64,000 nt of DNA from Pseudomonadota bacterium (GTDB lineage: Bacteria > Pseudomonadota > Gammaproteobacteria > Eutrophobiales > Eutrophobiaceae): assembly GCA_022574295.1 (NCBI GenBank), contig JACZSJ010000001.1:786-64785 (forward strand). The letters are read 5' to 3'. Below, in pieces: positions 1-48,147 of the stretch (its first letter is position 1; the number at the start of each line of letters is the position of its first letter). Both the position numbers and the translations under genes were made by a program. The notes below the pieces were generated by a model. That model ran no database searches. It saw only the letters and a program-made list of their open reading frames with translations, and was not told where the DNA came from.

Positions 1-493
1 TACACGATACCTTCTCACAGAGGTGGCGAGCTCGGGCACAGCAAGATCTATTGCAGCAAGATTGCCCGCATTTTTGCCTTTGGCTGGTAAAACAGGAACA
101 ACGAATGATTTGAGAGACAGCTGGTTTGCTGGCTTTGGGGATGATGTTCTCGGGGTGATTTGGGTTGGACGTGATGATAATCAATCATCACGGTTGACAG
201 GTTCAAGCGGTGCTTTACAAGTCTGGATAGATATCATGCAGGATCTGAAACCACGACCATTATCATTGATAACACCTGAAGGCGTTGAATGGGCTAAAAC
301 GTTACAGGGAAAGCGTGTGCCAGATAATTGTCCGGGGGCAGTCACCTACCCATTTGTGCAGGAGTACCTACCTGAATATTCAGGAACATGTCAGAATGAT
401 CCTGTTCAAAACAATCGTATTCATGATATTAAAACAGAAAGAAAAGATGCAAAGAATGAAACTACCATACGTCGGCATTTCAATATTCATTAA
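1..493 (+). CDS. mrcB: Penicillin-binding protein 1B, C-terminal part (5' end lies outside the window)
   Basis: The translation contains the transpeptidase KTGTTND motif and resembles the PBP1B C-terminus (KTGTT..WFAG..VGRD). The reading frame is open to position 1. Confidence 0.65.
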   Translation, partial: TRYLLTEVASSGTARSIAARLPAFLPLAGKTGTTNDLRDSWFAGFGDDVLGVIWVGRDDNQSSRLTGSSGALQVWIDIMQDLKPRPLSLITPEGVEWAKTLQGKRVPDNCPGAVTYPFVQEYLPEYSGTCQNDPVQNNRIHDIKTERKDAKNETTIRRHFNIH

Positions 494-1034
494 TCTGCTT
501 TTTTCTGCGTGTACGACAACGTCTGAACAGAATTACAAAACAGTGCCTGTAGAAGATCGAACGGTTACTGAGTCAACATATCAACGGGCAACATCTGGTA
601 GCAGAGCAATCTCGAAAGCTGAAACAGCGGATGAATCTCATCTTTCAGATATTGAGCGTGAGCATGTTGATTACAGGGAATCTGTTCCTGAACAATCTAC
701 CAGCCCTGTTGCGCTGGTATTTATTAATGATGCTGACAAATACGCATCTGCTGGCGATAGTGGCCGTGCGGTTGCAAGTCTGGAAAGAGGGCTTGATATT
801 GAACCAAAGAACCCCTGGTTGTGGAACAGACTCGCAGCAGAACGTCTGAAACAAAAAATGTGGGTGAAAGCGATCACCCTGGCTAAAAAATCAAACGCAT
901 TCACTGCAGGTAACAATCAATTACTGAAAGTTAATTGGCTAATTATTGCTGAAGCTAGATTGGCATTAGGCGATGCAGCTGGTGCCATGAAAGCGCAAGA
1001 AATGGCCCGGCGTTTTAGTCGTGAGAAGACCTGA
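447..1034 (+). CDS. Putative lipoprotein with TPR-like C-terminal helices
   Basis: An internal Met (MQRMKL) is followed by a signal peptide and a lipobox-like LFSAC. The C-terminal half is helical and Ala/Leu-rich. The 5' end overlaps the mrcB stop. Confidence 0.45.
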   Translation: MQRMKLPYVGISIFINLLFSACTTTSEQNYKTVPVEDRTVTESTYQRATSGSRAISKAETADESHLSDIEREHVDYRESVPEQSTSPVALVFINDADKYASAGDSGRAVASLERGLDIEPKNPWLWNRLAAERLKQKMWVKAITLAKKSNAFTAGNNQLLKVNWLIIAEARLALGDAAGAMKAQEMARRFSREKT

Positions 1035-1123
1035 TTTCATGGCAGGGCGTATACTAAGGTGTGGGCTATTTTTTATTGTAATCTAATAGTTGTGTAACAA
1101 TTTTGTCTGGTTGACGGTTTGAT

Positions 1124-1714
1124 TCAAATTTCATTCTCGTGAATTTCAACTGCCTTGTATCGCCATGCTTCGGTCAGCTTTTCCTGCGGTGGTATCTGGG
1201 CCTTTGCTTTTAGTTGTGAAAGAAATTGTTCAGCATCAGGCAGTGAATCCCACACCGCAGGCAAAAAGGTCGCACGCCGATGACCGGATTGAATGATCAA
1301 GCCATCAATATTGGCATTTAGTTGTTGAATCAGGTCGGAGTCCGAATTGAACTGAATTGATTCTGCCGGTGTCAAAATTGAAATACTCAGTGTTATCTTC
1401 TCGAACTCATCATGGCTGAGCGGTTTAAATCTTGGATCGCGGAAGGCAGCAGCGTAAGCATGCTTGGCAACGCCTCTGACCAAAGGATGTTTGGCTTCAA
1501 GGGTGCCAATACAGCCACGTAATGACTGCGCAATTTTCAATGTGACAAAAGTCGCTCTGATATTTTGCAATTCAGAAGCATAGCTTTTCAGGTTTATTTT
1601 TATCGTCTTGCCTGATTGTAGGCCATGCTGGATACTTGAGCGCGCGGTAGAGACCAGTATCTGTTTCTGCTCTTGTGTATACATCATAGTGATATTGTGT
1701 GGTTCCTGATTCAA
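1124..1714 (-). CDS. AmmeMemoRadiSam system protein A (AMMECR1 domain)
   Basis: 196-aa AMMECR1-family protein lying directly downstream of the MEMO1-like gene and next to the matching radical SAM gene. Confidence 0.75.
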   Translation of the reverse strand: MNQEPHNITMMYTQEQKQILVSTARSSIQHGLQSGKTIKINLKSYASELQNIRATFVTLKIAQSLRGCIGTLEAKHPLVRGVAKHAYAAAFRDPRFKPLSHDEFEKITLSISILTPAESIQFNSDSDLIQQLNANIDGLIIQSGHRRATFLPAVWDSLPDAEQFLSQLKAKAQIPPQEKLTEAWRYKAVEIHENEI

Positions 1715-1774
1715 GCGACGCCAGGAAATTCGATCCTAAACAATGCAACTTTAGACAATTCAACTCTGGTCAAT

Positions 1775-2584
1775 TTAATTAATAGCGTAGGCGCCATAAC
1801 CCACAACCCTGTCTTTGGTCCCTGCAGTATCCCCTGAGTTTCTCAAGTCAAGCATTTTAACTTTCAGATGTTTATTTCTTGCAAGCTGTAATAGACCACG
1901 CATGGGCATACACCCACAAGCCTGTTGCGGTCCGATTGATTCCAGATGTAAATTTTCAATCGCTTTACTGGTAGACAAATCTAGCTGCTGTGCTGTTTCA
2001 TAATCATGGAAATGACTTAGATCAGAACTGATAACGACAAGCGTATTATCATTTCCCCATAAAATTTCCAGAACTTCTTCAACTTCTTCAGGAGAGGCTT
2101 CACCAACGACGATGGGTATTAATTTAAAACGATCAAGCACAAGCTGCAGAAAGGGTAGATGTACTTCAATACTATGTTCCTCTGCGTGTGCTGCATCAAC
2201 CACTGAAACTTGTGACAAGTTTCGTATTGAATCATATGAATCCTGATCAATTTCAATCTTGCCCAAGGGGGTTTCATAATAATCAACAGAACTTAATGCC
2301 AGTCCCTTTAAATACACTCTGTGTGCAGGACCTAACAATACGACACGATTTATTTTTTCCTTTACAGACTGCAAACTAGTGTAAGCTATTGCGGCTATCG
2401 GTCCTGAATAGATCAATCCAGCATGTGGTGCAATAATCGCCTTTGATGGTGGTGGTATTTCCTCAACGTCGTTGAGGAGAGATTCAACCATCAGTTCCAG
2501 TTCAACAGGATTAGCTGGATAGAATTGTCCCGCTACCGCAGCCGGTCTGATGGTGCTTTTTATTTTGTTTTGACTATTATTCAT
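1775..2584 (-). CDS. AmmeMemoRadiSam system protein B (MEMO1 family)
   Basis: MEMO1-type N-terminus (AGQFYPANP, PHAGLIYSG). Start taken at the internal Met (MNNSQ) of the 274-aa ORF. Confidence 0.75.
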   Translation of the reverse strand: MNNSQNKIKSTIRPAAVAGQFYPANPVELELMVESLLNDVEEIPPPSKAIIAPHAGLIYSGPIAAIAYTSLQSVKEKINRVVLLGPAHRVYLKGLALSSVDYYETPLGKIEIDQDSYDSIRNLSQVSVVDAAHAEEHSIEVHLPFLQLVLDRFKLIPIVVGEASPEEVEEVLEILWGNDNTLVVISSDLSHFHDYETAQQLDLSTSKAIENLHLESIGPQQACGCMPMRGLLQLARNKHLKVKMLDLRNSGDTAGTKDRVVGYGAYAIN

Positions 2585-2635
2585 ATATGCGGTGCACAAA
2601 CCGGTGATTAACCATTGTGATAATTATAGGGTGTT

Positions 2636-3739
2636 TTGGAACAGCTTGCAGAAATGGTGACTAAAGTAATGAACTCAGTCGTGAGCACAAAATACTGGCA
2701 TGTCCTTGAAGATGGCCGGGTGCAGTGTGATGTTTGCCCGCGGGCATGTAAATTGAAAGAAGGACAGCAGGGACTTTGTTTCGTACGCGAATGCAGGGAT
2801 CAACAAATTGTTCTGACAACCTATGGTCGCTCAAGTGGATTTTGTATCGACCCCATTGAGAAGAAACCCTTAAACCATTTTCTACCGGGTACGCCGGTGC
2901 TTTCATTTGGCACCGCTGGATGCAATTTAGCCTGTAAATTTTGCCAGAACTGGGATATTAGCAAGTCCCGTGAAATTGACACTTTGGCTGATGCTGCATC
3001 ACCGGAACAACTGGCAAATGCAGCAAGTCAATTAAACTGTCGCAGTATTGCATTTACCTACAATGACCCGGTGATTTTTCATGAATATGCCATTGATGTT
3101 GCGCAGGCCTGTCATGAAAAAAATATAAAAACGGTTGCAGTTTCTGCTGGTTACGTTTGCGAAGAACCGAGAGAAGAATTTTATCAGTATATGGATGCAG
3201 CCAACATCGATCTGAAGGCCTTTACTGAACGTTTTTATCATCGTGTAACCGGTAGTCACCTTGCTCCTGTATTGGAGACACTGTCGTACCTTAAACATGA
3301 AACCGACGTCTGGTTTGAAATAACTAATTTAGTTATTCCTGGAGAAAATGATTCGGTGAATGAATTTGAAGAAATGACACAATGGATTATGGATAATCTT
3401 GGTCCTGATGTACCCATTCACTTTACCGCCTTCCATCCGGACTGGAAAATGCTAGACAAACCCGCAACGAGACCAGAAATATTGATCAAAGCCCGTGAAA
3501 TTGCACTAAAGAATGGAATACACTATGCGTATACAGGGAATGTGCATCATGAAGCGGGAGATACCAGTTTTTGTCACCAGTGTGGTGAAAAATTAATTGT
3601 TAGAGATTGGTATGAACTGAAATATTGGAATTTATCCGCGAAAGGAGAATGTCTAGCTTGTGGTGAACCATGTGCTGGTGTCTTTGAGGAAACTCCCGGC
3701 ACCTGGGGAGCAAAAAGGCAGCCTGTTCGTCTCGCTTAG
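2636..3739 (+). CDS. AmmeMemoRadiSam system radical SAM enzyme
   Basis: Carries the radical SAM CX3CX2C motif (CNLACKFCQNW) and the N-terminal KYWH..DGRVQCDVCPRAC motif typical of this family. It is divergent from the A/B genes. The start could also be 2654 or 2669. Confidence 0.8.
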   Translation: MEQLAEMVTKVMNSVVSTKYWHVLEDGRVQCDVCPRACKLKEGQQGLCFVRECRDQQIVLTTYGRSSGFCIDPIEKKPLNHFLPGTPVLSFGTAGCNLACKFCQNWDISKSREIDTLADAASPEQLANAASQLNCRSIAFTYNDPVIFHEYAIDVAQACHEKNIKTVAVSAGYVCEEPREEFYQYMDAANIDLKAFTERFYHRVTGSHLAPVLETLSYLKHETDVWFEITNLVIPGENDSVNEFEEMTQWIMDNLGPDVPIHFTAFHPDWKMLDKPATRPEILIKAREIALKNGIHYAYTGNVHHEAGDTSFCHQCGEKLIVRDWYELKYWNLSAKGECLACGEPCAGVFEETPGTWGAKRQPVRLA

Positions 3740-3789
3740 TTCATTATCTTGATTAAGTTTAAAGGTGGCTGTAACATGCGCCCCCTTAG

Positions 3790-3866
<77 letters not shown>

Positions 3867-4088
3867 AATGAAATGAGTTAGGGAATTTGGTAATTCGCCC
3901 TGGCGCGGAGCGCATGTCGGACTCGGTTGTTTAATAACAGGCGAAGGTCGTAGGTTCAAATCCTACCCCCGCTACCAAATGAAATGAGTTAGGAAATATG
4001 GTAATTAGGCCTGGCGCGGAGCGTATATCGGGCTCGGTTATATAATAACTGGCAAAGGATACAGGTTTAAAACCTGTCTCCGTTGCCA
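3867..4088 (+). repeat. Two decayed tandem pseudo-copies (period ~111 bp) of the preceding tRNA-Met gene
   Basis: Copy 2 (about 3903-3976) keeps an intact 3' half (CGAAGGTCGTAGGTTCAAATCCTACCCCCGCTACCA) but has a degenerate D-arm and anticodon arm. Copy 3 (about 4012-4088) is further degraded (T-arm ACAGGTTTAAAACCTGT, 3' end CCGTTGCCA). All three copies share the spacer AAATGAAATGAGTTAGG.AAT.TGGTAATT. Confidence 0.7.
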
Positions 4089-4233
4089 AAGTTTCTGAAG
4101 GGCTCCATTAGGGGCCTTTTTTACAGGCTTTCCAGAATTATTTGTCGGATGGTTTAGAAACTGGTGGTTTTAAGATGAGCGGCTATACTGCGCGTAGATT
4201 ATTTTGAATTTTAGAAGTGGGCCTTGTGCCCAT

Positions 4234-4430
4234 TTTTTATGTACAGGATGTACGGTATGCCGCGGGTGCATGGATGCACAGGAGCGGCGATGTACATAGG
4301 AGAACCTCTAATTAAGTCAGAGGTTCCATAGAAGTACGGTATGCCGCGGCCGCATGAACATCTTACAGGAAGTATTATTGTCACGAGAGGACGGGAGTTC
4401 GTAGCGACTGCACATGAGTGGCGGTTTGTA
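4234..4430 (+). repeat. Intergenic repeat element, copy A (upstream of rimP)
   Basis: Shares two modules with 17894-18062: TTTTTATGTACAGGATGTACGG, and GTATGCCGCGG.TGCATG.A...CAGGAAGTATTA.TGTC.CGAGAGGAC.GGAGT.CGTAGCGACTGCA...GAG.GGCGG. It has its own internal hairpin (GAACCTCT..AGAGGTTC) and begins right after a short terminator-like hairpin (4219-4240). Confidence 0.7.
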
Positions 4431-4434
4431 ATAA

Positions 4435-4890
4435 ATGCATAGTCAAAATAGTGATCTTATTGAGTTGTTAGAACCCGTTGTGACGGCACTGGGTTACGAA
4501 ATGCTTGGTATTGAGTATTTCAAACAAAAGGATGGTTCATTACTAAGGTTGTATATAGACCATGAGTCTGGAATCACGTTGCATGACTGTACAAAGGTGA
4601 ATCATCAGGTGATTGGTGTGCTTGACGTTCACGATCCCATTAAAGAGAGGTATCACCTGGAAATTTCATCACCAGGTTTGGATAGGCCTTTGTTTACGCT
4701 AGAACAGTTCGAGCGTTATCTGGGTCAGGAAGTGAAGATGAAGTTTCGGGAGAAACTTGATGGACGTCGAAAGATTAAAGGCGTAATCAAGGCAGTAGAA
4801 GAGAAAGCAGTAGTCATCAGTGAGGATGGTGTTGATTATTTAATCCCTGCTGATGTGATTGATTTGGCACATTTGGTACCAAAAATATAA
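4435..4890 (+). CDS. rimP: Ribosome maturation factor RimP
   Basis: 151 aa with RimP-like sequence (LEISSPGLDRPL) and the conserved position upstream of nusA. Confidence 0.85.
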   Translation: MHSQNSDLIELLEPVVTALGYEMLGIEYFKQKDGSLLRLYIDHESGITLHDCTKVNHQVIGVLDVHDPIKERYHLEISSPGLDRPLFTLEQFERYLGQEVKMKFREKLDGRRKIKGVIKAVEEKAVVISEDGVDYLIPADVIDLAHLVPKI

Positions 4891-4946
4891 TGTTACGGAT
4901 AATTAATTTGTTCTGAAAGTAGTGTGTTGAGAGTAATCATAGATTT

Positions 4947-6482
4947 ATGAATAAAGAGATTTTAACGGTGGTTGATGTTGTTTCCAGTGAGAAAGGCGTC
5001 AGCAAAGATATCATCTTCGAGGCAATCGAAGCTGCATTGGCGATGGCGACCAAAAAACGTAATCGTGAGGATATTGAATCACGTGTCGCGATTGACCGTG
5101 AAACAGGCAGCTATGAAACATTTCGTTGTTGGGAAGTCATGGAGACGACAGATGAAGATCTCGAATTCCCAGGTAGACAAATAAAGCTTAAAGATGCTTT
5201 GGAAGATCACCCCGACATTGAGCCTGGTCAGTTTGTTGAAGAACCGATGGATTCCGTCGAATTTGGTCGAATTGCAGCGCAAATAGCAAAGCAGGTCATC
5301 GTACAGAAAGTACGAGAAGCTGAAAGAATTCAAGTGGTGGAGGCTTATGCAGATCGTGTAGGTGAGATGCTGAGCGGTGTTGTGAAGCGGGTTGAAAGAG
5401 GCAATGTATATCTGGATCTGGGTAGAAATGCCGAGGGTTTTATTGCGCGTGATTGTTTGATACCCAGGGAAGCAGTAAGACCAGGAGATCGTATTCGTGC
5501 CTACTTGCAGGAAGTTCGTTCCGAAACACGTGGGCCACAATTGTTTTTGAGCCGTACGGCACCTGAGTTGTTGATTGAATTATTCAAACTTGAAGTCCCT
5601 GAAGTCAATGAAGGCATGATTGAAATTATCAATGGTGCCCGGGATCCCGGCGCAAGAGCAAAGATAGCGGTCAAGGCAAATGACCCTCGGATAGATCCCA
5701 TTGGTGCTTGTGTTGGTATGCGTGGTTCCCGCGTGCAGGCAGTCTCTAACGAACTTGGCGGCGAACGTATTGACATTATACTGTGGGATGAAAACCCCGC
5801 ACAATTTGTTATTAATGCCATGGCACCAGCGGAAGTTGCTTCAATTCTGGTAGATGAAGATGCGCATAGCATGGATATCGCAGTAGAAGAAGATAATCTG
5901 TCACAGGCAATCGGCCGTGGGGGACAAAATATACGACTCGCCAGTGAGTTATCAGAGTGGGTGCTCAATGTTATGTCTGTGGAACAGGCAGAAGAGAAAG
6001 CCGAAGAGGAATCTCAGACCTTACAAAAGATGTTTATGGAACAGTTGGACATTGATGAAGAGATGGCCCTTATTCTGGTACAGGAAGGTTTTTCTAGTGT
6101 TGAAGAAATCGCCTATGTTCCAGAAGAGGAAATGCTTAATATTGAAGAATTCGATGATGACCTGGTGCAGGAACTACGTGGACGTGCGCGAGATGTCATG
6201 TTAACTCGAGCAATTGTTAGCGAGGAAAAATTAGTTGATGCACATCCAGCAGAGGATCTGTTGCAAATGGATGGTATGGAAGATGCGCTTGCTTATGAGT
6301 TGGCAGCAATAGGCGTTTCTACCATGGAAGATCTGGCGGATCTTTCAGTGGATGAATTAATGGAAATCGAGGGAATGGAAAATGAACGAGCAGGCAAATT
6401 AATTATGACCGCCAGAATTCCCTGGTTCGAATCTGAAACAGAGGCTGAAGCTGGAGTCGACGGAGGGTCAACAGATGCCTGA
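4947..6482 (+). CDS. nusA: Transcription termination/antitermination factor NusA
   Basis: 511 aa with S1/KH domains and an acidic C-terminal repeat region. rimP-nusA-infB synteny. Confidence 0.9.
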
Positions 6483-9063
6483 GGTTACGGTCAGTCAATT
6501 TGCAAGCGTTGTCGGTATTGCCGTTGAGCGTTTACAGGAACAGATAGAAGAGTCTGGGTTACCCAAAAAATCTCCGGACGAAATGATTACAGATGAAGAA
6601 AAAAATCATCTGTTGAGTTATTTGCGAGGTAAACATGGAAAGGGATCTGCTGAAACAAAAAAGATTACTTTGAGAAGAAAGACAAGTAGTGAAATTAAAG
6701 TGCCACTTAGCGTACAGGGAAGGAATAAAACAAAATCAAAAATAGTTAATGTTGAGTTTAGAAAGAAACGTACCTACGTTAGACGTAGTGCAATTGAGGA
6801 ATTTACGAAACCAGTAGATGAAGAATTGTCTGCGGAATCGACGAAGGTTGCCGAAGATATTGTTGACAGTGCACAGCTTGTTGAAGAAACAAAGTCAGTT
6901 GATTCGACAAGTACTGAAACAGCAAATGAACATCAGGCAGAGGGGACACCTGTCGATGGGTCTGGAGAGCCCGAAATTAAGTTGGCAGCAGATGGAACGG
7001 CAGTTGCAGAAATTGAAGACAACACCTCTGTCGAAGAGATTGTCAAGGAGCCAGCCGTTGTAGAAACTCCGGTTCAGGAAAAGCCTGATCAGATAACGCC
7101 TGATCAGACAGGGATTGCTCAGGAACAAACCGATAATAAATCTAGAACAGGTAAAAAAGGAAAAGATAAATCAACTCGTTACGGTCGCCAGGAATTGCAC
7201 GTCGCTTCTGAAAAATCAGGACGTCGTAAGAAAAAACCAAGACGTAGGCATAAGGTCATTCCAACGATTGAAACGCAACATGGGTTTGAAAAACCAACAG
7301 AACCCATGATCAGAGAAGTTGATATCCCTGAGAATATTTCAGTGGGCGATCTTGCTCAAAAAATGTCGGTCAAGGCAACTGAAGTCATCAAGATGATGAT
7401 GGGTCTGGGAAGTATGGTCACCATCAATCAAATGCTTGATCAAGCGACAGCTTCTCTTGTTGTGGAAGAGATGGGCCATAAAGCTAAATTACTGAGTGAA
7501 ACTGCGCTGGAAGACGAAATTGTCTATGCAGCGAAAAAGACTGGCGAGCAGGTCTTGCGCGCACCTGTCGTGACGATTATGGGTCACGTTGACCATGGTA
7601 AAACTTCACTGCTTGATTATATTCGCAAGACGAAAGTCGCCGAGAGTGAAGCAGGTGGAATTACCCAACATATCGGTGCTTATGTGGTAGAGACAGACAA
7701 AGGAAAAATAACATTTCTGGACACACCGGGACATGCTGCGTTTACGGCAATGCGCGCGCGTGGTGCCAAGGTTACAGACATCGTCATCGTCGTGGTTGCC
7801 GCTGATGATGGTGTGATGCCACAAACAGAAGAAGCCGTACAACATGCCAAGGCCGCTAATGTGCCCATTATTGTTGCTGTCAATAAAATTGATAAAGCCG
7901 AGGCAGATCCTGAGCGAGTCAAACAGGCATTATCTAAACTGGAGGTTATCCCGGAAGATTGGGGAGGTGATACCCAATTTGTGAATGTTTCTGCACAGAC
8001 TGGTGAGGGGATTAATACTTTACTTGAAAATATTTCCCTGCAGGCCGAGTTGCTTGAACTTAAAGCATCAGAAGAAGGTCCAGCCACGGGGACGGTGATT
8101 GAGGCACGTCTGGACAAAGGGCGTGGACCCGTGGCAACGATATTGGTGCAAAGTGGTGCTCTTGAGAAAGGTGATATTGTTCTGAGTGGTAGAGAATATG
8201 GCCGCGTCCGGGCAATGGTTGATAGCAATGGCGATGAAGTTACGTCATCTGTAGGGCCATCTACACCCATTGAGGTACTTGGTTTATCTGGCATACCCAA
8301 TGCCGGGGACGAAATGATCGTTGTCCCTGATGAGAAAAAGGCACGTGAGATCGCTGATCTCAGACAAACCAAGAGCCGTGAATCCAAGTTGGCAAAACAG
8401 CAAGCGGTTAAATTACAGAACGCCATGAACCGGATGAGTGAGGGTGATATCTCGACACTCAATATCATGATCAAGGCCGATGTCCAGGGATCATCTGAAG
8501 CCATCGTAGAGGCGGTCACCAAACTGTCGAACGAGGAAGTCAGGGTTGGTGTGGTTAGCAGTGGAGTTGGTGGTATTACAGAAACTGATATGAATCTGGC
8601 ACTGGCATCAAAAGCAGTCGTCATCGGTTTTAATGTTCGTGCAGATGCATCTGCACGTAAGCTTGCAGATGAAGAAGGCATTGAAATTCGTTATTACAGC
8701 ATTATTTACGATCTAATCGATGATGTGAAAGCAGCCATGAGCGGCATGCTTGCGCCTGAACTGCGTGAACAAATTGTTGGTGTTGCAGAAGTGAAAGACG
8801 TATTCCGGTCACCAAAATTTGGTGACATTGCCGGTTGTATTGTTTCCACAGGTGTTGTTAAAAGGAATAATCCGATTCGCGTCTTGCGGGATAATGTCGT
8901 TATTTACGAAGGGGAACTCGAATCACTCAGACGATTCAAGGATGATGTTAATGAAGTGAAGTCAGGCATAGAATGCGGAATTGGTGTGAAAAATTATGAC
9001 AATATCCAGCCTGGTGATCAAATTGAGGTGTTTGAGCGAATCGAAATTGCACGCACGATTTAA
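6475..9063 (+). CDS. infB: Translation initiation factor IF-2
   Basis: 862 aa with GTPase motifs ([18 protein letters not shown]). Its start overlaps the nusA stop by 8 nt. Confidence 0.95.
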
Positions 9064-30571: not shown

Positions 30572-32473
30572 ATGAGTAAAATATCTTTTAAATCAGTGGT
30601 AATCGCTGCGATCGCTCTGGTGGTGCCTGTAGTTGCGTCTGCGAATGATGAAGTTCGCAGCCTCATACAGAACCCTAACTATTGGGCGTTTCCTAGTGGT
30701 AACTACGACGGTCACCGATATACTGCGTTGAAGCAAATCAATAACAAGAATGTCGGTAAGTTACAAGTTGCGTGGACATTTTCTACAGGTGTTCTGCGTG
30801 GTCACGAAGGCGGTCCTCTGGTTCTGCCTGGTTCTGCAACTGGTCTGCCTGGTGATACGCTGTACATCCATGCTGCTTTCCCGAACAATACGTTTGCGAT
30901 TGATCTGGATACACTGCAAATCCTCTGGCATTTTGAACCACAGCAGGATTTCGACGTAACTGTTCCTGTGATGTGCTGTGACACGGTCAACCGTGGTCTT
31001 GGTTACTCAATGGGTCAGATTTATCTGCAGCAAGCTGACACCGTATTGGTGGCTCTAGATGCTAAAACAGGTAAAGTCAACTGGTCAGTTCAACAGGGTG
31101 GCGATATCTCGGCTGCCTTGGGTGGTCCTTACGGTCCTGAATCAGGTATGACCAATACCAACGCACCACATCCTATTAAAGACAAAGTCTTTACGGGTTG
31201 TTCTGGTGCTGAGTTTGGTGTCCGTTGCTGGATGGCCGCTTACAATGCAAAAGACGGTAGTCTGGCATGGCGTGCTTTCAGCATGGGCCCTGACGCAGAC
31301 ATGATGTTCGATGCAAACACAACCTCTCTGGGCAAGAAAGTTGGTAAGGATTCCAGCCTGAAGACCTGGAAGGGTGATCAGTGGAAGCAAGGCGGTGGTT
31401 CTGCTTGGGGTTATTGGCCTGCTGATTTCGACGAAAACCTGATGTACTACGGTACTGGTAATCCAGGGACCTGGAATCCGGTAGTTCGTCCTGGCGACAA
31501 TAAATGGTCTATGACTATGTTTGCTCGTGATATCGACACTGGTGTTGCACGTTGGGTCTATCAGATGACGCCTCATGATGAGTGGGACTATGATGGCGTT
31601 AATGAAATGATCCTGGCTGACTTCAAAGTTAAAGGCAAAATGACAAAAGCACTGGTTCATTTTGACCGTAATGGCTTTGCATATACCATGGACCGTATAA
31701 CAGGTGCTCTGTTAGTTGCTGAGAAATATGATCCAGCAGTGAACTGGGCAACAGGTATTGATATGAAAACAGGTCTGCCACAACGTGTTGCTAAATACAG
31801 TACACACGGTAACGGTGAAGACGTCGTTTCTAAAGACATCTGTCCTTCAGCTCTGGGCACCAAGGATCAACAGCCTGCTGCTTACTCACCACAGACAGGT
31901 CTTTTCTATGTACCTACCAACCACGTATGTATGACCTACGAACCAGTTAGCTATGCTGCTGGGGGTAACAAGTATGTTTCAGGTCAGGCTTTCGTGAATG
32001 CAAACTTAACCATGTATCCTGCTGGTGCTGTATGTCCGGATTGCCCGAACAACAACGCAGCAAAAGACAACATGGGTAACATGCTTGCATGGGATGCGAG
32101 CACAGGTAAGATTGTATGGAACATCGTTGAGCAGTATTCAGTTTGGTCAGGTGTACTCGCAACCGCAGGTGGCGTAGTGTTCTACGGTAACCTCGAAGGT
32201 TGGGCTAAAGCTGTCGATGCCAAGAGCGGCAAACTTCTCTGGAAGTTTAAAACTCCTTCAGGCATCATCGGTAGCTTCAATAGCTGGGCATACAAAGGCA
32301 AGCAGTATGTCGGTGTCTTATCAGGTATTGGTGGTTGGGCTGGCGCAGTTGTTGCTATCCCAGGTTTAGCCGCAGCTCCTGACACAGCAGCACTTGGTGC
32401 TGTTGGTGGTTACAGGAGTCTGTTGCAGCACTCACGTGCTGGTGGTGTTTTGATGGTGTTCGCACTGCCATAA
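30572..32473 (+). CDS. xoxF: PQQ-dependent methanol dehydrogenase, XoxF-type (lanthanide-type DYD motif)
   Basis: 633 aa with a signal peptide, the vicinal disulfide PVMCCD, and the tryptophan-docking repeats typical of the 8-bladed PQQ propeller. The motif W-D-Y-D-G (nt about 31583-31597) has Asp where MxaF-type enzymes have Ala. XoxJ-like and SoxYZ-like partners are adjacent. Confidence 0.8.
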
Positions 32474-32506
32474 GTAAGTAGCACGTAACAAACTAAGTAG
32501 TATTAA

Positions 32507-32539
32507 AGCCCTGACCTTTTATAAGGTCGGGGCTTTTTT
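32507..32539 (+). terminator. Rho-independent terminator after xoxF
   Basis: AGCCCTGACC-ttttataa-GGTCGGGGCT hairpin followed by TTTTTT. Confidence 0.75.
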
Positions 32540-32890
32540 AATCAGTATGTGGTATGTGGTCCCTCTTGCTGAGGGAGTGTGGAAATCTAATGAATCACAA
32601 AATCCTGGAAAGTTCCGTAATATGGTAAAAAACTTTGCCTTGTTCACCAGGTCATAGTGGGTGTACCCGCTAAATGATATCTTTCGCATGCATTTATTTG
32701 GACTTAAGCGCTTTGAATAGAGTTTATTAATTATATATTAGGGATTGAATTTACAGAGTAAATCCATCAATATTAAACAATGTGCCCATGCCAAATGGTC
32801 CTGTGCAGTCGACAGCTAGAAAGTCTGCATATGGCGATGGTGGTACACAATCGTTTTAAATAGTACGAAGCCTCACTGGAGAAGGTTAAG

Positions 32891-33313
32891 ATGAAAATAA
32901 TGAAAATTGCTTTAATATCTGCTGCTTTATCAGTATTACTCGTATCTTTCAACGCAGCTGCAGAAGAACATTTGGTTGTCTCTGGCGCGACCAACTTTAT
33001 TCCCATGCATCTTTTTATTAAACCTGGGGATACTGTCAAATGGACAAACATGACCATCCATAATAGTGAATCTATGGAGGGTCTGATCCCGAAAGGTGCA
33101 GAACCATGGAAATCCAACATTGGTCAGGAATTGGCCGTGACCCTGGATGTCGAAGGTGTTTATATCTATAAGTGCTTTCCTCACTTTGCTAACGGCATGG
33201 TGGCAGCCATCATTGTTGGCGAAGCAAATAATATGAATCAACTTGATAATAATGCCAAAGGCAGGGAGAAGGGCGTCATCTTTAAGCTGAAGAAGAAACT
33301 TGCAGCAAAATAA
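32891..33313 (+). CDS. Pseudoazurin-family blue copper protein (cupredoxin)
   Basis: Signal peptide. Type-1 copper ligand pattern H..C-F-P-H-x(4)-M (YKCFPHFANGMV), as in pseudoazurin. Confidence 0.7.
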   Translation: MKIMKIALISAALSVLLVSFNAAAEEHLVVSGATNFIPMHLFIKPGDTVKWTNMTIHNSESMEGLIPKGAEPWKSNIGQELAVTLDVEGVYIYKCFPHFANGMVAAIIVGEANNMNQLDNNAKGREKGVIFKLKKKLAAK

Positions 33314-33334
33314 GATCCAGTAACGGCCCATAAA

Positions 33335-34237
33335 ATGATTAACTTCAATAAAGATGCTCAACGATCAGGGCGAAAGTATTTTGTCCTGATTACAATGCTG
33401 ATCCTCGGTTTTACCAGTAACATTGCGATTGCAGAAGATTCTAAATACAAGGAACGACCTGTTCTGAAAGTGTGTGCAGATCCTCAGTTGATGCCATTTT
33501 CTAATAAAAACGAAGAAGGCCTGGAAAACAAGATTGCTGAGTTATTAGCCAAAGAACTCGGGGCCGAACTCAAATATGTATGGTTTCCACAGCGAATGGG
33601 GTTTATTCGTAATACGCTTCGTTCTGAAGAAAATGGTATTTTCAAATGTGATCTGGTTTTGAGTGTGCCGGAACACTTTGAACTGGCCGCTACAACCAAG
33701 CCATATTACGCTTCAACTTATGCATTAGTGTACGTTAAGGGAAGAGGGTTAGACAGTGTTACGGAGCCGGATATGCTTGAGACACTGAACGATGAGAGAC
33801 AAGATATTAAAATTGGTCTGTTTGATCGTGGCCCGGCGCAACTCTGGGTTTTTCAGCGTAATCTGATGGATAATATGGTCCCGTATCAATTACAGCTGGG
33901 TGATGCCAGGAAGAACCCAACTGAAATTATCTTGAGTGATCTGCTTGATGGAAAGTTCGATGCGACCATTGTTTGGGGTCCGACGGCAGCATATTTTGCC
34001 ACACAGAACAAAGATAAAGGTGAATTGGTGATACTACCGTTAAAGGATGATCTAAAATTACCGGAAATGAAATTTGTATACAATATGTCGATGGCTGTCA
34101 GGCATGCTGATAAGGAATGGAAAGAACAATTAAATGGATTGATTGATAAATATCAGGAAGATATCAATGCTATTATCAGCAGCTATGGTATCCCTATCGT
34201 TGAAGTAATACCAAAGCCAGCATTAGATGATGATTAG
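33335..34237 (+). CDS. xoxJ: Quinoprotein dehydrogenase-associated periplasmic binding protein (MxaJ/XoxJ family)
   Basis: Signal peptide followed by PVLKVCADPQLMPFSN, matching the LRVCADPxNLPFS signature of MxaJ/XoxJ. About 300 aa. Confidence 0.7.
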   Translation: MINFNKDAQRSGRKYFVLITMLILGFTSNIAIAEDSKYKERPVLKVCADPQLMPFSNKNEEGLENKIAELLAKELGAELKYVWFPQRMGFIRNTLRSEENGIFKCDLVLSVPEHFELAATTKPYYASTYALVYVKGRGLDSVTEPDMLETLNDERQDIKIGLFDRGPAQLWVFQRNLMDNMVPYQLQLGDARKNPTEIILSDLLDGKFDATIVWGPTAAYFATQNKDKGELVILPLKDDLKLPEMKFVYNMSMAVRHADKEWKEQLNGLIDKYQEDINAIISSYGIPIVEVIPKPALDDD

Positions 34238-34273
34238 TCCCCCTATTAGTTAGAAATTAAGAATTGATAAAAA

Positions 34274-35041
34274 ATGATTAGATATTTATTACTGGTGGTT
34301 TTCCTTTCAAGCTCATTATCAGCGGTCGCTGAGGAAACGGCAAAAGAAGAAATAAAGCCACAGATTGGCTCAATGGATGATTCAGGAAGGGTTGACCCGG
34401 ATGAATACGAATTTTCAAATGCCGAAAATAAATTGTGGATGGATAACCATTTACTAAATATTAAGCAGGCAGTAAGGCTACACTATGAGTTTGAGAAGAC
34501 AGGCTCTTATGAAGATGGTTTCATTGACGATGTCTATCTGGATATTGTTAAAATAAATGAAGACGGCACAAGGGATGCTGTCCTGGATTTCTTTTCAGAC
34601 GAACAAAAACAAAAGGTGTCACCGAGCAATGTGAAGAATATCACGGGTAATCCGGTGATAGGCATATATCTACAGGGCGACGTTTACGAAATGAGTCGTT
34701 TTACTGAAGGCAACTGGAAGTATTTTCATCGACAAATTAAGCTGGCGATGGCAGATAGCAATACCAGTGAGCATGTGACTGTTGAACTTGAAGGGAAGCT
34801 GTATCAGGGCGAAAAAATTGTACTGTATCCCTATGAAAATATTAAACAGAAAAGTCGCTTAAAAGAATTTTCTGATAAGCGTTATGAATTTATTCTATCG
34901 GATGAAATACCAGGAAAGTTATATCAAATAAGAACAGTAATTAACGACGCAGAAAATCCAGCTGTCCCTTTGGTGGAAGAAGTATTAACGTTAAAGAGTG
35001 TGGAGTTCGCTACTAAGGTTGTTGCCAAAAACGAAAATTAA
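34274..35041 (+). CDS. Periplasmic hypothetical protein in the xox cluster
   Basis: Signal peptide MIRYLLLVVFLSSSLSAVA. No recognisable motifs. Co-directional with and immediately after xoxJ. Confidence 0.45.
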   Translation: MIRYLLLVVFLSSSLSAVAEETAKEEIKPQIGSMDDSGRVDPDEYEFSNAENKLWMDNHLLNIKQAVRLHYEFEKTGSYEDGFIDDVYLDIVKINEDGTRDAVLDFFSDEQKQKVSPSNVKNITGNPVIGIYLQGDVYEMSRFTEGNWKYFHRQIKLAMADSNTSEHVTVELEGKLYQGEKIVLYPYENIKQKSRLKEFSDKRYEFILSDEIPGKLYQIRTVINDAENPAVPLVEEVLTLKSVEFATKVVAKNEN

Positions 35042-35080
35042 TCACTGATCAGGGACAGGTTAAATAATTTTTTGACAGAG

Positions 35081-35113
35081 AAAGGGTGGTATCTGATGAT
35101 ACCACCCTTTTTG
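35081..35113. terminator. Bidirectional rho-independent terminator
   Basis: AAAGGGTGGTATCTGATGATACCACCCTTTTTG lying between convergent genes. Confidence 0.8.
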
Positions 35114-35184
35114 TTTGGGGAGGTTTTAATTTGATGAATTAAATTTAATCCAATTAATAGTGAGTAGCGAGTTCTTAGTTAGTT

Positions 35185-37980: not shown

Positions 37981-39641
37981 TATTCAAATTCCTCAGGAAA
38001 ATATTTTATTGCACAACGTAATGGGTTCGGGGCTGCCTGACCCAGGCCACAAATAGAGGCATCTTCCATTGCCCGTGCCAGTTCTTCTAATAAGGACTGA
38101 TCCCAATATTTTTCTTCCATCAACTTAACTGCTTTTTCAGTTCCTACCCGACAAGGCGTGCATTGCCCACAGGACTCATCTTCGAAAAATCGCATTGCAT
38201 TTAACGCCATATTTTTAACGCTGTCTTTATCTGATAGTACGACAATCGCGGCTGAGCCAATAAAACAACCATGTTCCTGTAATGTATCAAAGTCGAGTGG
38301 AACGTCACCTAAAGAGGCAGGGAGTATCCCGCCAGATGCGCCACCAGGGAAATAGCCATAAAATTTATGACCATCCAGCATACCGTCACAGTATTCTTCA
38401 ATCAATTCACGTATTGTAATGCCTGCTGGTGCAAGATATACACCGGGTTTATTAATTCGACCACTGACAGAAAATGATCTTAATCCACTTCGTTCATGAC
38501 GGCCTTCAGATGAAAACCATTCCGGACCCTTTTCGATGATGTCCCGAACCCAATGCATTGATTCCATATTTTGTTCTAATGTCGGTCGCCCAAACAGACC
38601 GACCTGAGCAACATAAGGGGGACGTAGGCGTGGTAGCCCACGTTTGCCCTCGATGGATTCGATCATAGCGGACTCTTCGCCACATATATAAGCACCTGCA
38701 CCGCGACGCAAATGGATATTGGGTAATGGGCAGGGGGGATCTTGCTTTAATGCGGACAGTTCCTTTTCCAATGCTTTTCTGCAGCCTGCATATTCATCCC
38801 TCAAATAGATATATATATCCTCAGCTTCGATTGCCCAATGCGCTATTAATGTCCCTTCAATAAATCGATGAGGATCCCGTTCGAGGTAATATCGATCCTT
38901 GAATGTTCCCGGTTCTCCTTCATCAATGTTAATAGCAATTAGTCGAGGCTTGGATTGTTGACGTAAAATGCGCCACTTTTGCCCTGTTGGAAAGCCTGCA
39001 CCACCGAGTCCACGGAGTTTCGAATCTTCCAGTATTTTAATGATCTCTTCTCGATCGTGTTTTCCATTAACACAATCAATCAGCGTTTGATAACCACCAG
39101 ATTTTCGATAGCTGGCATAGTCAATATACTCTGGCATTGCTGCGTCAAACTCTCTCCTATTTACAGCATTGTCTATTTTCCCCTGGTTGGCATGCTCAAT
39201 TGGGTTTGTGCCAACAACGGCAACAGGGGCTGTATCACACCGACCGATACATGGCACAGCTTGAATTCTGACATCATCTTTATATTTGGCTTCTAGCTGA
39301 TTAATGAGCTCTTTAGCGCCAAACATCTCGCAAGTGAGTGATTCACATACCCGGATGGTTAGTGTTGGCGGAGGTGGCTCATTTTCGTTTAACACGTCAA
39401 AGTGATGATAAAACGTGGCCGTTTCATAGATTTCAGCCATTGGTAGGCTCATGTCTATGGCGAGTGCAAGAATATGACGATTTGAAATATGGTGATAGTG
39501 ATCCTGTATTTTATGGAGATTCTCAATCAACATATCGCGCGTGCGGGGCGCATCACCTAGAAGCTGCCGAACTTCTGCTAAAGATTTATGGGGTGTAGTA
39601 CGACCTTGAACACGACCTTTTTTCCCACGTGTACGTTTCAT
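37980..39641 (-). CDS. fdsB: NAD-dependent formate dehydrogenase beta subunit (NuoE-like plus NuoF-like fusion; FdsB/Fdh1B-like)
   Basis: 553 aa with an N-terminal thioredoxin-like 2Fe-2S domain and the NuoF flavin/NADH motifs (GLGGAGFPTGQKW, ESCGQCTPCR). Confidence 0.85.
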   Translation of the reverse strand: MKRTRGKKGRVQGRTTPHKSLAEVRQLLGDAPRTRDMLIENLHKIQDHYHHISNRHILALAIDMSLPMAEIYETATFYHHFDVLNENEPPPPTLTIRVCESLTCEMFGAKELINQLEAKYKDDVRIQAVPCIGRCDTAPVAVVGTNPIEHANQGKIDNAVNRREFDAAMPEYIDYASYRKSGGYQTLIDCVNGKHDREEIIKILEDSKLRGLGGAGFPTGQKWRILRQQSKPRLIAINIDEGEPGTFKDRYYLERDPHRFIEGTLIAHWAIEAEDIYIYLRDEYAGCRKALEKELSALKQDPPCPLPNIHLRRGAGAYICGEESAMIESIEGKRGLPRLRPPYVAQVGLFGRPTLEQNMESMHWVRDIIEKGPEWFSSEGRHERSGLRSFSVSGRINKPGVYLAPAGITIRELIEEYCDGMLDGHKFYGYFPGGASGGILPASLGDVPLDFDTLQEHGCFIGSAAIVVLSDKDSVKNMALNAMRFFEDESCGQCTPCRVGTEKAVKLMEEKYWDQSLLEELARAMEDASICGLGQAAPNPLRCAIKYFPEEFE

Positions 39642-41370: not shown

Positions 41371-41376
41371 TATATT

Positions 41377-43032: not shown

Positions 43033-43046
43033 AATTCAATGATTCC

Positions 43047-44318: not shown

Positions 44319-44330
44319 AGCGAAAGTAAT

Positions 44331-44368
44331 TACTGACTTAAAATTATTGTACTGACTTAAAATTATTA
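44331..44368. repeat. 19-bp tandem direct repeat in the fhcB leader
   Basis: TACTGACTTAAAATTATTG repeated twice, back to back, 13-51 nt upstream of the fhcB start codon. Confidence 0.7.
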
Positions 44369-44608
44369 ATGGCTAAGATACAGCCATTCCAGGTATTTTC
44401 CTGCAATCGTTCAACTAGTCTAGAAAATTAAGGTCCCGAAGGGATAGAGGTATGCGTAACTCATTGTATTTATTATGTATTTAAACAGATCTGCCACCAT
44501 CAATTTCATAGATGGCAATAATATACACTATTAGAAACAATCTGTAAGCTGGTAATTATGCCGGATATTTTTGCAATTTCTGCATTATATAAGGAATAAA
44601 TTTCTTGC

Positions 44609-46000: not shown

Positions 46001-46060
46001 TAAAAATATCTCCCACTGGGAATTATGTAATAAAATTATGCAATGATTATTAACGAATCA

Positions 46061-46369
46061 TTAGAAACCAAGTTCCGTCTTACGTTCCTCAGCGCCCGGT
46101 AATGGATCCATTTGCTCATCACAAACAGGGAGATCAGGTGCTCGTTCAGCATTAATGGCAATCCATTCTTCCTTGCCTTCAGCAACAATATCATCATCCT
46201 CAAAGATTGCTTGTACAGGGCATTCAGGGATACAGGCACTGCAATCAATGCATACATCAGGATCGATATACAACATTTCATCATCAAAATGAAAACAGGC
46301 GACAGGACAGACAGTGACACAATCTGTGAAACGACAGGATTTACAATTATCAGTTACTATAGTTGTCAT
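46061..46369 (-). CDS. fdxA: 7Fe ferredoxin ([3Fe-4S][4Fe-4S], FdxA type)
   Basis: 102 aa with CKSCRFTDCVTVCPV and CIDCSACIPECP motifs. Immediately upstream of fprA on the same strand. Confidence 0.85.
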   Translation of the reverse strand: MTTIVTDNCKSCRFTDCVTVCPVACFHFDDEMLYIDPDVCIDCSACIPECPVQAIFEDDDIVAEGKEEWIAINAERAPDLPVCDEQMDPLPGAEERKTELGF

Positions 46370-48134: not shown

Positions 48135-48147
48135 CAGTATTCGCCAG

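What the first reader, a model, noticed from the sequence alone, without database searches (positions are those of the whole stretch)
1124..3739. Complete AmmeMemoRadiSam three-gene system (function unknown)
An AMMECR1-domain protein, a MEMO1-family protein and a dedicated radical SAM enzyme (CNLACKFCQNW) are clustered. A+B are on the minus strand, and the radical SAM gene is divergent with only about 36-70 bp between the start codons. The biochemical function of this widespread trio is unknown. The divergent arrangement implies tightly overlapping promoters.
Basis: partly seen in the sequence, partly recalled or inferred. Interest (0 to 1): 0.5.

Follow-up and report, generated by a model that had tools for sequence, protein, structure and literature searches.

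The report
Known AmmeMemoRadiSam three-gene system, confirmed
The three clustered genes are a genuine copy of the AmmeMemoRadiSam system, which the public record of this genome already names; its biochemical role is still unknown, and this copy has nothing unusual about it.

Summary
Window 1124-3739 holds an AMMECR1 protein (A), a Memo protein (B) and a radical SAM enzyme (R).

- **Family scores.** They score 184.5, 271.6 and 652.3 bits against TIGR04335, TIGR04336 and TIGR04337. The cut-offs are 99, 26 and 220.
- **Already annotated.** Identical proteins are in NCBI as MCH8845110-12, from a Pseudomonadota MAG, and are already named "AmmeMemoRadiSam system" proteins.
- **Start codons.** With those starts, the divergent ATGs of B and R are 69 bp apart. 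With the longest ORFs they are 36 bp apart.
- **Layout.** The A<-B / ->R arrangement recurs in 42 of 80 related loci. Six more have B alone next to R.
- **Active sites.** All expected active-site residues are present.
- **New for mechanism.**
  - Family members occur as B-A, A-R and triple fusions in three different domain orders, so the three proteins very probably act as one 1:1:1 complex.
  - R is closest in fold to pyruvate formate-lyase activase, but has two extra, universally conserved four-cysteine sites.
  - R evolves much more slowly than B or A (69%, 54% and 46% median identity).
- **Literature.** Ten full-text searches found no experimental function.
- **Best guess, weakly supported.** The trio is a radical-SAM-initiated enzyme, assisted by a metal and a thiol, that modifies a conserved cellular substrate, possibly an RNA base.

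Novelty: already known. Interest is low to moderate.

The parts
1124..1687 (-). AmmeMemoRadiSam system protein A (AMMECR1 domain), 187 aa from ATG 1687. The longest ORF starts at TTG 1714 (196 aa).
   Evidence: TIGR04335 184.5 bits against cut-off 99. PF01871, E 2e-45. Exact match to NCBI MCH8845110.1. Closest solved structures are 1wsc, 1vaj and 1zq7.
1505..1522 (-). LRGCIG motif of A, the predicted catalytic cysteine (RGChG signature). The DPRF (DxRa) motif follows 23 residues later.
   Evidence: Read from the sequence. G, C, G and D, R, F are invariant in 43 A sequences from related loci. The motifs are defined in PMC2034487.
1775..2584 (-). AmmeMemoRadiSam system protein B (Memo domain), 269 aa from ATG 2584. 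The longest ORF starts at TTG 2599.
   Evidence: TIGR04336 271.6 bits against cut-off 26. PF01875, E 8e-56. Exact match to MCH8845111.1. The APHAG, GPAH, EHSxEVH, SSDLSH and ACG residues align with the corresponding motifs of human MEMO1, which I recall (not checked here) as its His/Asp/Cys metal site, and are invariant in 35 homologues. AF2 model pLDDT 92.8.
1790..1840 (-). C-terminal motif of B, NSGDTAG-x3-VVGYGA. It is specific to the radical-SAM-linked Memo proteins.
   Evidence: The VVGYGA core is invariant in the complete B sequences from related loci. It forms beta-strand 260-268 at block-mean pLDDT 84-95 in the model. Human MEMO1 has QSSQCRN...DSSVSYAA at the aligned positions.
2585..2653 (.). 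69-bp divergent intergenic region between the B and R start codons. It must hold at least part of both promoters.
   Evidence: Start codons. The -10-like hexamers are GATAAT 2619-2624 (+, preceded by TGT) and TATAAT 2628->2623 (-). The scan called no sigma-70 promoter. The sequence is not conserved, and there is no conserved FNR-type box across 49 divergent loci.
2654..3739 (+). AmmeMemoRadiSam system radical SAM enzyme (R), 361 aa from ATG 2654. The longest ORF starts at TTG 2636.
   Evidence: TIGR04337 652.3 bits against cut-off 220, covering the full profile. Exact match to MCH8845112.1. AF2 model pLDDT 81.6, pTM 0.85. The best PDB fold match is PFL activase 3c8f/3cb8, E 4e-12.
2726..2779 (+). 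N-terminal CX2CX3CX9C four-cysteine site of R (auxiliary metal or Fe-S site; its nature is inferred).
   Evidence: All four Cys are invariant in 81 close sequences and in 72 full-length family representatives down to 38% identity.
2921..2953 (+). CNLACKFCQNW: the CX3CX2C radical SAM [4Fe-4S]/SAM-binding motif.
   Evidence: Sequence. PF04055 match. Cys conserved in 70 of 72 representatives.
3572..3661 (+). C-terminal CX2C-X22-CX2C site of R (zinc-ribbon-like).
   Evidence: The four Cys are present in all 72 aligned representatives, apart from one gap at C336. Weak Pfam DZR (double zinc ribbon) hit, E 8e-4, below the gathering score. Beta-hairpins in the AF2 model.

Best explanation
**What it is (shown).** This is a complete, intact AmmeMemoRadiSam system: the operon B(Memo)-A(AMMECR1) on the minus strand and, divergently, its dedicated radical SAM enzyme R.

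**How it most likely works.**

1. The three proteins assemble into one 1:1:1 complex. This is inferred, with strong support.
2. R binds SAM on its CX3CX2C [4Fe-4S] cluster, is reduced, and cleaves SAM to a 5'-deoxyadenosyl radical that abstracts a hydrogen atom from the substrate. This follows from established radical SAM chemistry. The two extra, universally conserved four-Cys sites of R probably hold an auxiliary Fe-S cluster and a zinc ribbon, for electron relay or for docking a partner or substrate.
3. B holds the substrate or an intermediate at its intact His/His/Asp/His/Cys metal site.
4. A contributes a binding cleft with an invariant cysteine (RGCIG) that resolves or transfers the radical-derived group.

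**Substrate (inferred, weak).** It is a highly conserved cellular molecule. The best candidate is an RNA nucleobase in tRNA or rRNA. An isoprenoid or quinone lipid is the second candidate.

**Confidence by layer.**
- Identity of the system: about 0.97.
- One stoichiometric complex: about 0.8.
- RNA-base substrate: about 0.3.
For: **Identity.**
- All three proteins pass the curated cut-offs.
- The proteins are identical to NCBI entries already so named.

**Complex.**
- 27 of the 120 listed B homologues are B-A fusions, and six of the related loci encode one.
- Family representatives include R-A-x-B (P0404 and at least five more, about 1000-1150 aa), R-B-A (P0482), B-A-R (P0485) and A-R (P0427).
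- Every fused domain passes its TIGR cut-off.
- Three different domain orders imply independent fusions.
- The A<-B / ->R layout recurs in 42 of 80 loci from several phyla.

**R chemistry.**
- The nearest sequence families are glycyl-radical activases (TIGR02493, 59.5 bits).
- The nearest fold is PFL-AE.
- The CX3CX2C motif and both four-Cys sets are conserved in 72 representatives.

**B and A active sites** are intact.

**Conserved substrate.** In the same 42 loci the median pairwise identity is 69% for R, against 54% for B and 46% for A. R is 65-75% identical across Gammaproteobacteria, Gemmatimonadota, Planctomycetota, Nitrospirota and Chloroflexota.

**RNA lead.**
- The RAGNYA-fold analysis of AMMECR1 predicts RNA base modification (PMC2034487).
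- Archaeal AMMECR1 lies in a conserved neighbourhood with NFACT and a Mut7-C RNase (PMC4075521).
Against: - No experiment on any member was found, so every mechanistic step beyond SAM cleavage is inference.
- In 32 of the 80 related loci (Gemmatimonadota, Nitrospirota, Thermoanaerobaculia and others) R has no A or B gene detected nearby, within up to 6 kb where the contig allows. Clustering is therefore not universal.
- No RNA-metabolism gene is a recurrent neighbour.
- The position next to tRNA-fMet-rimP-nusA-infB is shared by only four close relatives.
- Some family members are fused to NosR-like membrane redox modules. This fits a membrane or lipid substrate at least as well as RNA.
- Eukaryotes keep A and B without R (my own knowledge, not tested here), so A and B can work without radical SAM chemistry.
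Confidence: 0.55

Rival explanations
1. **Activase model.** R is a PFL-activase-type enzyme whose substrate is its own partner. It installs a stable glycyl or thiyl radical, or another post-translational modification, on B or A. The B-A pair thereby becomes an oxygen-sensitive radical enzyme.
For: - The closest characterised relatives of R, in sequence and in fold, are glycyl-radical-enzyme activases, which act on proteins.
- AMMECR1 is the strongest anaerobe-indicator Pfam in a 2026 survey: 3.4% of aerobes against 50.7% of anaerobes (PMC13386939).
- B carries an invariant C-terminal VVGYGA that resembles the RVxGY glycyl-radical fingerprint (recalled from memory). The R-less human MEMO1 has Ser at that Gly.
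Against: - The Arg of the fingerprint is not conserved in B; it varies among R, Q, S, K and A.
- The Gly sits inside a confidently modelled core beta-strand, not in a finger loop.
- Covalent 1:1 fusions of R with A and B are not what one expects for a catalytic activase, which works sub-stoichiometrically.
- This clade lives in aerobic methylotroph and sulfur-oxidiser lineages.
- Archaeal AMMECR1 proteins were crystallised without R (1vaj, 1wsc), and eukaryotes lack R (the latter from my own knowledge).
Confidence: 0.12
2. **Lipid or quinone model.** The trio modifies an aliphatic isoprenoid or another membrane-associated small molecule rather than RNA.
For: - Burroughs et al. 2019 (J Biol Chem 294:10211; not readable here, known to me only from my memory of its abstract) link Memo contexts to isoprenoid modification as well as to nucleotide bases.
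- TIGR04337 members are fused to membrane modules DsbD_2 + FMN_bind + Fer4_5 (NosR-like), which places R at the membrane in those organisms.
Against: - No isoprenoid, quinone or lipid gene is a recurrent neighbour in the 80 loci.
- The membrane modules may simply be an electron supply for the cluster.
- The AMMECR1 fold is mainly a nucleic-acid, nucleotide or peptide binder (PMC2034487).
Confidence: 0.15
3. **Metal or redox model.** B acts as a Cu/Fe-binding redox or metal-handling protein, as reported for human MEMO1. A and R are accessory, and no substrate is covalently modified.
For: - The metal-ligand residues of MEMO1 are all conserved in B.
- MEMO1 structures with bound metal exist (7kq8, 7l5c, 7m8h).
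Against: - A dedicated radical SAM enzyme under very strong purifying selection and fused to A and B implies catalysis on a substrate.
- No metal-homeostasis genes recur nearby.
Confidence: 0.05

Closest known systems
AmmeMemoRadiSam system (NCBIfam TIGR04335 / TIGR04336 / TIGR04337)
   Same: All three proteins pass the curated cut-offs. The genes are clustered, and all signature residues are present. The source record already uses these names.
   Different: Nothing essential differs. In this copy B and A are separate genes 60-87 bp apart, whereas many relatives have abutting, overlapping or fused genes. The locus lies between mrcB plus a TPR lipoprotein gene and tRNA-fMet-rimP-nusA-infB, a position shared with only four relatives.
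Pyruvate formate-lyase activating enzyme (PflA; PDB 3c8f, 3cb8) and other glycyl-radical activases
   Same: It is the best sequence and fold relative of R, with the same partial TIM-barrel radical SAM core and CX3CX2C motif.
   Different: R scores 59.5 bits against the PflA cut-off of 231.75. It is about 120 residues longer. It has two extra, universally conserved four-Cys sites at its N- and C-termini. No glycyl radical enzyme was found next to it.
Human MEMO1 (PDB 3bcz, 7kq8)
   Same: Same fold family (E 4e-36 with a profile). The aligned HAG, GPxH, EHSxExH, SSDxxH and CG motifs, which I recall as the metal site of MEMO1, are conserved.
   Different: MEMO1 has no radical SAM partner. It also lacks the NSGDTAG...VVGYGA C-terminal motif of B, with QSSQCRN...DSSVSYAA instead.
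Archaeal AMMECR1 proteins PH0010, ST0229 and MM0484 (PDB 1vaj, 1wsc, 1zq7)
   Same: Same domain, same RGCIG and DPRF motifs.
   Different: A scores below the cut-off of the archaeal equivalog model (NF002000: 104.9 bits against 273). It belongs instead to the bacterial system-A model.
TYW1/TYW3 steps of wybutosine synthesis (analogy proposed by Balaji & Aravind 2007)
   Same: A radical SAM enzyme works together with a RAGNYA-fold enzyme that has a catalytic Cys in a C-shaped cleft (PMC2034487).
   Different: There is no homology between R and TYW1. The analogy is a prediction only.

Membership tests
AmmeMemoRadiSam system | Protein A scores above the TIGR04335 cut-off | tested here: met
   184.5 bits against 99.
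AmmeMemoRadiSam system | Protein B scores above the TIGR04336 cut-off | tested here: met
   271.6 bits against 26.
AmmeMemoRadiSam system | Radical SAM partner scores above the TIGR04337 cut-off over its full length | tested here: met
   652.3 bits against 220, profile positions 1-349 of 349.
AmmeMemoRadiSam system | The three genes occur together in one genome or locus | tested here: met
   All lie within 2.6 kb. The same layout is found in 42 of 80 related loci.
AmmeMemoRadiSam system | R has CX3CX2C plus the family's N- and C-terminal four-Cys sets | tested here: met
   C25/28/32/42, C90/94/97 and C307/310/333/336 are all present, and are conserved in 72 representatives.
AMMECR1 (PF01871) | RGChG and DxR-aromatic motifs | tested here: met
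   LRGCIG and DPRF are present and invariant in 43 sequences. The motifs are defined in PMC2034487.
Memo (PF01875) | His/His/Asp/His/Cys metal-site residues of MEMO1 (residue roles recalled from memory) | tested here: met
   They align with the corresponding motifs of MEMO1 and are invariant in 35 homologues.
Glycyl-radical-enzyme activase (PflA, TIGR02493) | Score above the family cut-off | tested here: not met
   59.5 bits against 231.75. All other activase models are also far below their cut-offs.
Glycyl-radical-enzyme activase | A cognate glycyl radical enzyme encoded nearby | tested here: not met
   None in the window flanks, and none as a recurrent neighbour in 80 loci. The rest of the genome could not be searched.
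Glycyl radical protein (B as a candidate) | RVxGY-type fingerprint on an exposed finger loop near the C-terminus | tested here: not met
   VGY is conserved, but the Arg varies among R, Q, S, K and A. The Gly lies in core beta-strand 260-268, block-mean pLDDT 84-95. The fingerprint itself is recalled from memory.
AmmeMemoRadiSam system | A biochemical activity | not testable with these tools
   No activity is defined for the family. Ten literature searches found none.

The most novel reading that the evidence does not exclude
R is a PFL-activase-like enzyme that acts on its own partners. It would create a protein-based radical or a covalent modification on the B-A module, for example at the invariant Gly-rich C-terminus of B (NSGDTAG...VVGYGA, which R-less human MEMO1 lacks) or at the RGCIG cysteine of A. 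Memo-AMMECR1 would then be a previously unrecognised class of radical enzyme. The evidence weakens this reading: the Arg is variable, the Gly lies in a core strand, and the fusions are 1:1. It does not exclude it.
Probability: 0.08. Interest if true: 0.8.

Novelty: already known. Interest (0 to 1): 0.25.

Why it matters
Memo and AMMECR1 are conserved from archaea to humans. MEMO1 is linked to cancer-cell motility and to metal/redox biology, and AMMECR1 to an X-linked developmental syndrome. Neither has a known biochemical reaction. The bacterial three-gene system is the best handle on that reaction, because its radical SAM partner constrains the chemistry.

This window adds no new kind of system. 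The comparative work here does give usable constraints:
- The three proteins are repeatedly fused in different orders, so they should be reconstituted together.
- R carries two further conserved metal sites and is unusually constrained.
- This clade occurs in cultivable aerobic methylotrophs (Methylomicrobium, Methylobacter, Methylophaga), where knock-outs are practical.

Tried and rejected
1. **Shared regulator site in the divergent spacer.** I looked for an FNR-type box (TTGAT-N4-ATCAA, up to 2 mismatches) in 49 divergent loci and found only scattered hits, none conserved. The spacers are 25-350 bp and not alignable.
2. **Sigma-70 promoter scan of 900-4500.** It found nothing in the spacer. 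Only -10-like hexamers are present.
3. **Functional link to the adjacent tRNA-fMet-rimP-nusA-infB operon.** Rejected as a general link, because only 4 of 80 loci share this synteny.
4. **A fourth conserved gene.** Clustering all ORFs of the 80 loci gave no recurrent neighbour besides A and B.
5. **B as a glycyl-radical protein.** The motif resemblance does not hold up.
6. **Rfam scan of 900-4700.** It found only the tRNA and a decayed copy, with no riboswitch or leader for the system.
7. **Pfam on the Cys-rich ends of R.** Only a sub-threshold double zinc ribbon hit at the C-terminus, and nothing for the N-terminus.
8. **Literature.** Ten searches found no experimental function. Burroughs et al. 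2019 (PMC6664185) is not in the held library.
9. **Structure coordinates.** The AF2 models could not be inspected, so the distances between the Cys sets and the SAM cluster were not measured.
Full report
**1. The observation**

The ORF list for window 1-8000 shows the three reading frames at exactly the coordinates given:
- 1124..1714 on the minus strand (196 aa);
- 1775..2599 on the minus strand (274 aa);
- 2636..3739 on the plus strand (367 aa).

The motif CNLACKFCQNW is encoded at 2921-2953.

| Protein | NCBIfam model | Bits | Cut-off | E-value |
|---|---|---|---|---|
| A | TIGR04335 | 184.5 | 99 | 1e-54 |
| B | TIGR04336 | 271.6 | 26 | 6e-81 |
| R | TIGR04337 | 652.3 | 220 | 1e-196 |

The R match covers all 349 profile positions. 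Pfam gives AMMECR1, Memo and Radical_SAM.

**2. Source and start codons**

An exact-sequence look-up shows that these proteins are already in NCBI as MCH8845110.1, MCH8845111.1 and MCH8845112.1. They come from a 65,420-bp contig of a "Pseudomonadota bacterium" MAG and are named "AmmeMemoRadiSam system protein A", "protein B" and "radical SAM enzyme".

The deposited starts are ATG 1687 (A, 187 aa), ATG 2584 (B, 269 aa) and ATG 2654 (R, 361 aa). The two divergent start codons are then 69 bp apart. With the longest ORFs the gap is 36 bp. None of the candidate starts has a convincing Shine-Dalgarno sequence, so the exact starts stay uncertain by a few codons.

**3. Surroundings**

- **Upstream of A.** The 3' end of a reading frame that I read, from its translation only, as a class A penicillin-binding protein (PBP1b-like) gene, and a gene I read as a TPR lipoprotein.
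- **Downstream of R.** tRNA-Met(CAT) at 3790-3866, then ORFs that I read from their translations as rimP, nusA and infB.
- **Synteny.** This position is shared with only four of 80 related loci (L003, L007, L044, L055). It is a lineage trait, not a functional link.
- **Rest of the window.** It encodes a PQQ methanol/ethanol-family dehydrogenase, an NAD-type formate dehydrogenase and two formylmethanofuran dehydrogenase A subunits. The host therefore looks like an aerobic methylotroph.
- **RNA elements.** Rfam finds no regulatory RNA for the system.

**4. Comparative anatomy**

A scan of one genome per species returned 80 loci whose R is 65-75% identical to the window's. They span Gammaproteobacteria, Gemmatimonadota, Nitrospirota, Planctomycetota, Acidobacteriota and Chloroflexota.

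- In 42 of the loci, mostly Gammaproteobacteria, the A<-B / ->R divergent layout is the same.
- In six more (five Planctomycetota, one Chloroflexota) only B sits beside R.
- In the remaining 32, many of them Gemmatimonadota, Nitrospirota and Thermoanaerobaculia, neither A nor B was detected. Most of these have up to 6 kb of flank; in two, part of B is visible at a contig end.

No other gene family recurs. The divergent spacers are 25-350 bp, are not alignable, and have no conserved FNR-like box.

In the window the spacer holds GATAAT (2619-2624, plus strand, preceded by TGT) overlapping TATAAT (2628->2623, minus strand). Similar TATAATTATAG-like palindromes appear in L053, L077, L003, L007 and L034. 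Neither hexamer has a usable -35, and the consensus scan calls no promoter. Overlapping divergent promoters are thus plausible but untested.

**5. Active sites**

- **A** has LRGCIG and DPRF. G, C, G and D, R, F are invariant in 43 sequences. These are the RGChG and DxRa signatures that Balaji and Aravind proposed as the AMMECR1 active site (PMC2034487).
- **B** has the APHAG, GPAH, EHSxEVH, SSDLSH and ACG residues. They align with the corresponding motifs of human MEMO1, which I recall as its His/Asp/Cys metal site, and are invariant in 35 homologues.
- **R** has the CX3CX2C triad plus two four-Cys sets. These are CX2CX3CX9C near the N-terminus and CX2C-X22-CX2C near the C-terminus. Both are invariant in 81 close sequences and in 72 full-length representatives down to 38% identity.

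The C-terminal set gives a weak double zinc ribbon hit. The AF2 model of R (pLDDT 81.6, pTM 0.85) matches PFL activase best (3c8f/3cb8, E 4e-12, target-normalised TM 0.75). Lipoyl synthase, HydE, QueE and viperin follow. No structure of the family itself is in the PDB.

**6. Evidence bearing on mechanism**

- **(a) Fusions.**
  - 27 of the 120 listed B homologues are B-A fusions, and six of the fetched loci encode such fusions.
  - An exhaustive search of 1.84 billion representatives found 8106 relatives of R at E <= 1e-3, of which 1854 are at E <= 1e-30.
  - Among the best are proteins of 900-1150 aa that are R-AMMECR1-(spacer)-Memo (for example P0404 from a Phycisphaeraceae MAG). Others are R-Memo-AMMECR1 (P0482), Memo-AMMECR1-R (P0485), AMMECR1-R (P0427) and R-AMMECR1 (P0407).
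  - In every fusion I scored against the TIGR models, each part passes its cut-off.
  - Three different orders mean repeated independent fusion. This is the classic signature of proteins that work in one complex at fixed stoichiometry.
- **(b) Rates.** In the same 42 loci the median pairwise identity is 69% for R, 54% for B and 46% for A. R is under far stronger constraint than its partners. This suits an enzyme with three metal sites, two protein partners and an invariant substrate.
- **(c) Membrane redox fusions.** Some TIGR04337 members are fused to DsbD_2, FMN_bind and Fer4_5 modules (NosR-like). These probably supply electrons.
- **(d) Ecology.** In a 2026 survey AMMECR1 is the strongest anaerobe-indicator Pfam, at 3.4% of aerobes against 50.7% of anaerobes (PMC13386939). 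The clade seen here nevertheless sits in aerobic or micro-oxic methylotrophs and sulfur oxidisers.

**7. Most likely mechanism and rivals**

I favour a stoichiometric three-component radical enzyme.

1. R makes the 5'-deoxyadenosyl radical and abstracts hydrogen from the substrate.
2. B holds the substrate or an intermediate at its metal site.
3. A provides a binding cleft and a catalytic thiol.

The substrate is unknown. RNA bases are the leading candidate, on three grounds: the nucleic-acid-binding fold of AMMECR1, the archaeal AMMECR1-NFACT-RNase neighbourhood (PMC2034487, PMC4075521) and the extreme conservation of R. I put this at only about 0.3.

**Activase rival.** Here R radicalises or modifies A or B. 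It is suggested by the kinship with PFL-AE and by an invariant VVGYGA at the C-terminus of B. Three results count against it. The fingerprint Arg is variable. The Gly lies in a confidently modelled core strand. And 1:1 fusions are odd for an activase. It is still notable that human MEMO1, which has no R partner, has DSSVSYAA and lacks the preceding NSGDTAG.

**Lipid or quinone rival.** It draws on Burroughs et al. 2019 (not readable here) and on the membrane-module fusions.

**Metal-handling rival.** A pure metal-handling role for B is unlikely, given the dedicated and highly constrained radical SAM partner.

**8. Comparison with the known, and verdict**

By every defining feature I could test, this is a member of the AmmeMemoRadiSam system, and the public record already says so. 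R works like a PFL-type activase in its core chemistry. It is not a member of any activase family: it reaches 59.5 bits against a cut-off of 231.75. Ten full-text searches found no experimental function for the system.

The finding is correct, already known, and ordinary as an instance. Its only wider interest is that the family remains a conserved unknown with human disease relatives. The fusion, conservation and host-range data gathered here sharpen how that unknown could be attacked.

Noticed in passing
window 3790-4058: tRNA-Met(CAT) at 3790-3866 is followed by a 111-bp tandem repeat (3831-3941 and 3942-4052, 91% identical, 2.1 copies). The repeat begins inside the T-arm of the tRNA. The second copy (3902-3974) scores as a sub-threshold tRNA (20.6 bits against 29). 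These look like decayed tandem copies of the initiator-type tRNA gene. The four syntenic relatives each have a single tRNA-Met at the same place.
   Followed up: partly
window 4247-4272 and 4331-4356: A 26-nt direct repeat (GATGTACGGTATGCCGCGGGTGCATG, 88% identical) lies in the long leader upstream of rimP-nusA-infB. It may be a regulatory or processing element of that operon.
   Followed up: no
window 30572-49788: A one-carbon metabolism cluster: a PQQ-dependent methanol/ethanol-family dehydrogenase (30572-32473), formate dehydrogenase alpha (35185-37980) with a NuoE/F-like subunit (37980-39641), and two formylmethanofuran dehydrogenase subunit A genes (41377-43032 and 48148-49788). The host is probably an aerobic methylotroph. 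That is an unusual lifestyle for a system whose AMMECR1 domain is otherwise a marker of anaerobes.
   Followed up: partly
proteins P0489, P0524, P0530, P0547, P0461 (representatives related to window 2654-3739): Several members or close relatives of the radical SAM family carry N-terminal membrane redox modules (DsbD_2 transmembrane domain, FMN_bind, Fer4_5; NosR-like). P0489, P0524 and P0461 were confirmed above the TIGR04337 cut-off. The modules suggest a built-in membrane electron supply for the radical SAM cluster in some lineages.
   Followed up: partly
proteins P0404, P0405, P0408, P0412, P0423: In the R-AMMECR1-x-Memo triple fusions, a segment of about 200 residues with no Pfam match lies between the AMMECR1 and Memo domains. 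Its sequence is conserved (for example RPGVPLQSTLF). It may be a degenerate second AMMECR1-like domain or a new domain.
   Followed up: no
protein P0406 (509 aa, ENA metagenome): A family member whose C-terminal extension matches part of ribosomal protein S16 (Pfam E 1.7e-6). This could be a gene-calling artefact or a real fusion.
   Followed up: no
window 1688-1774: B and A are 87 bp apart here (60 bp if A starts at TTG 1714). In most related loci the two genes abut, overlap or are fused into one reading frame (L002, L007, L033, L038, L040, L044).
   Followed up: partly
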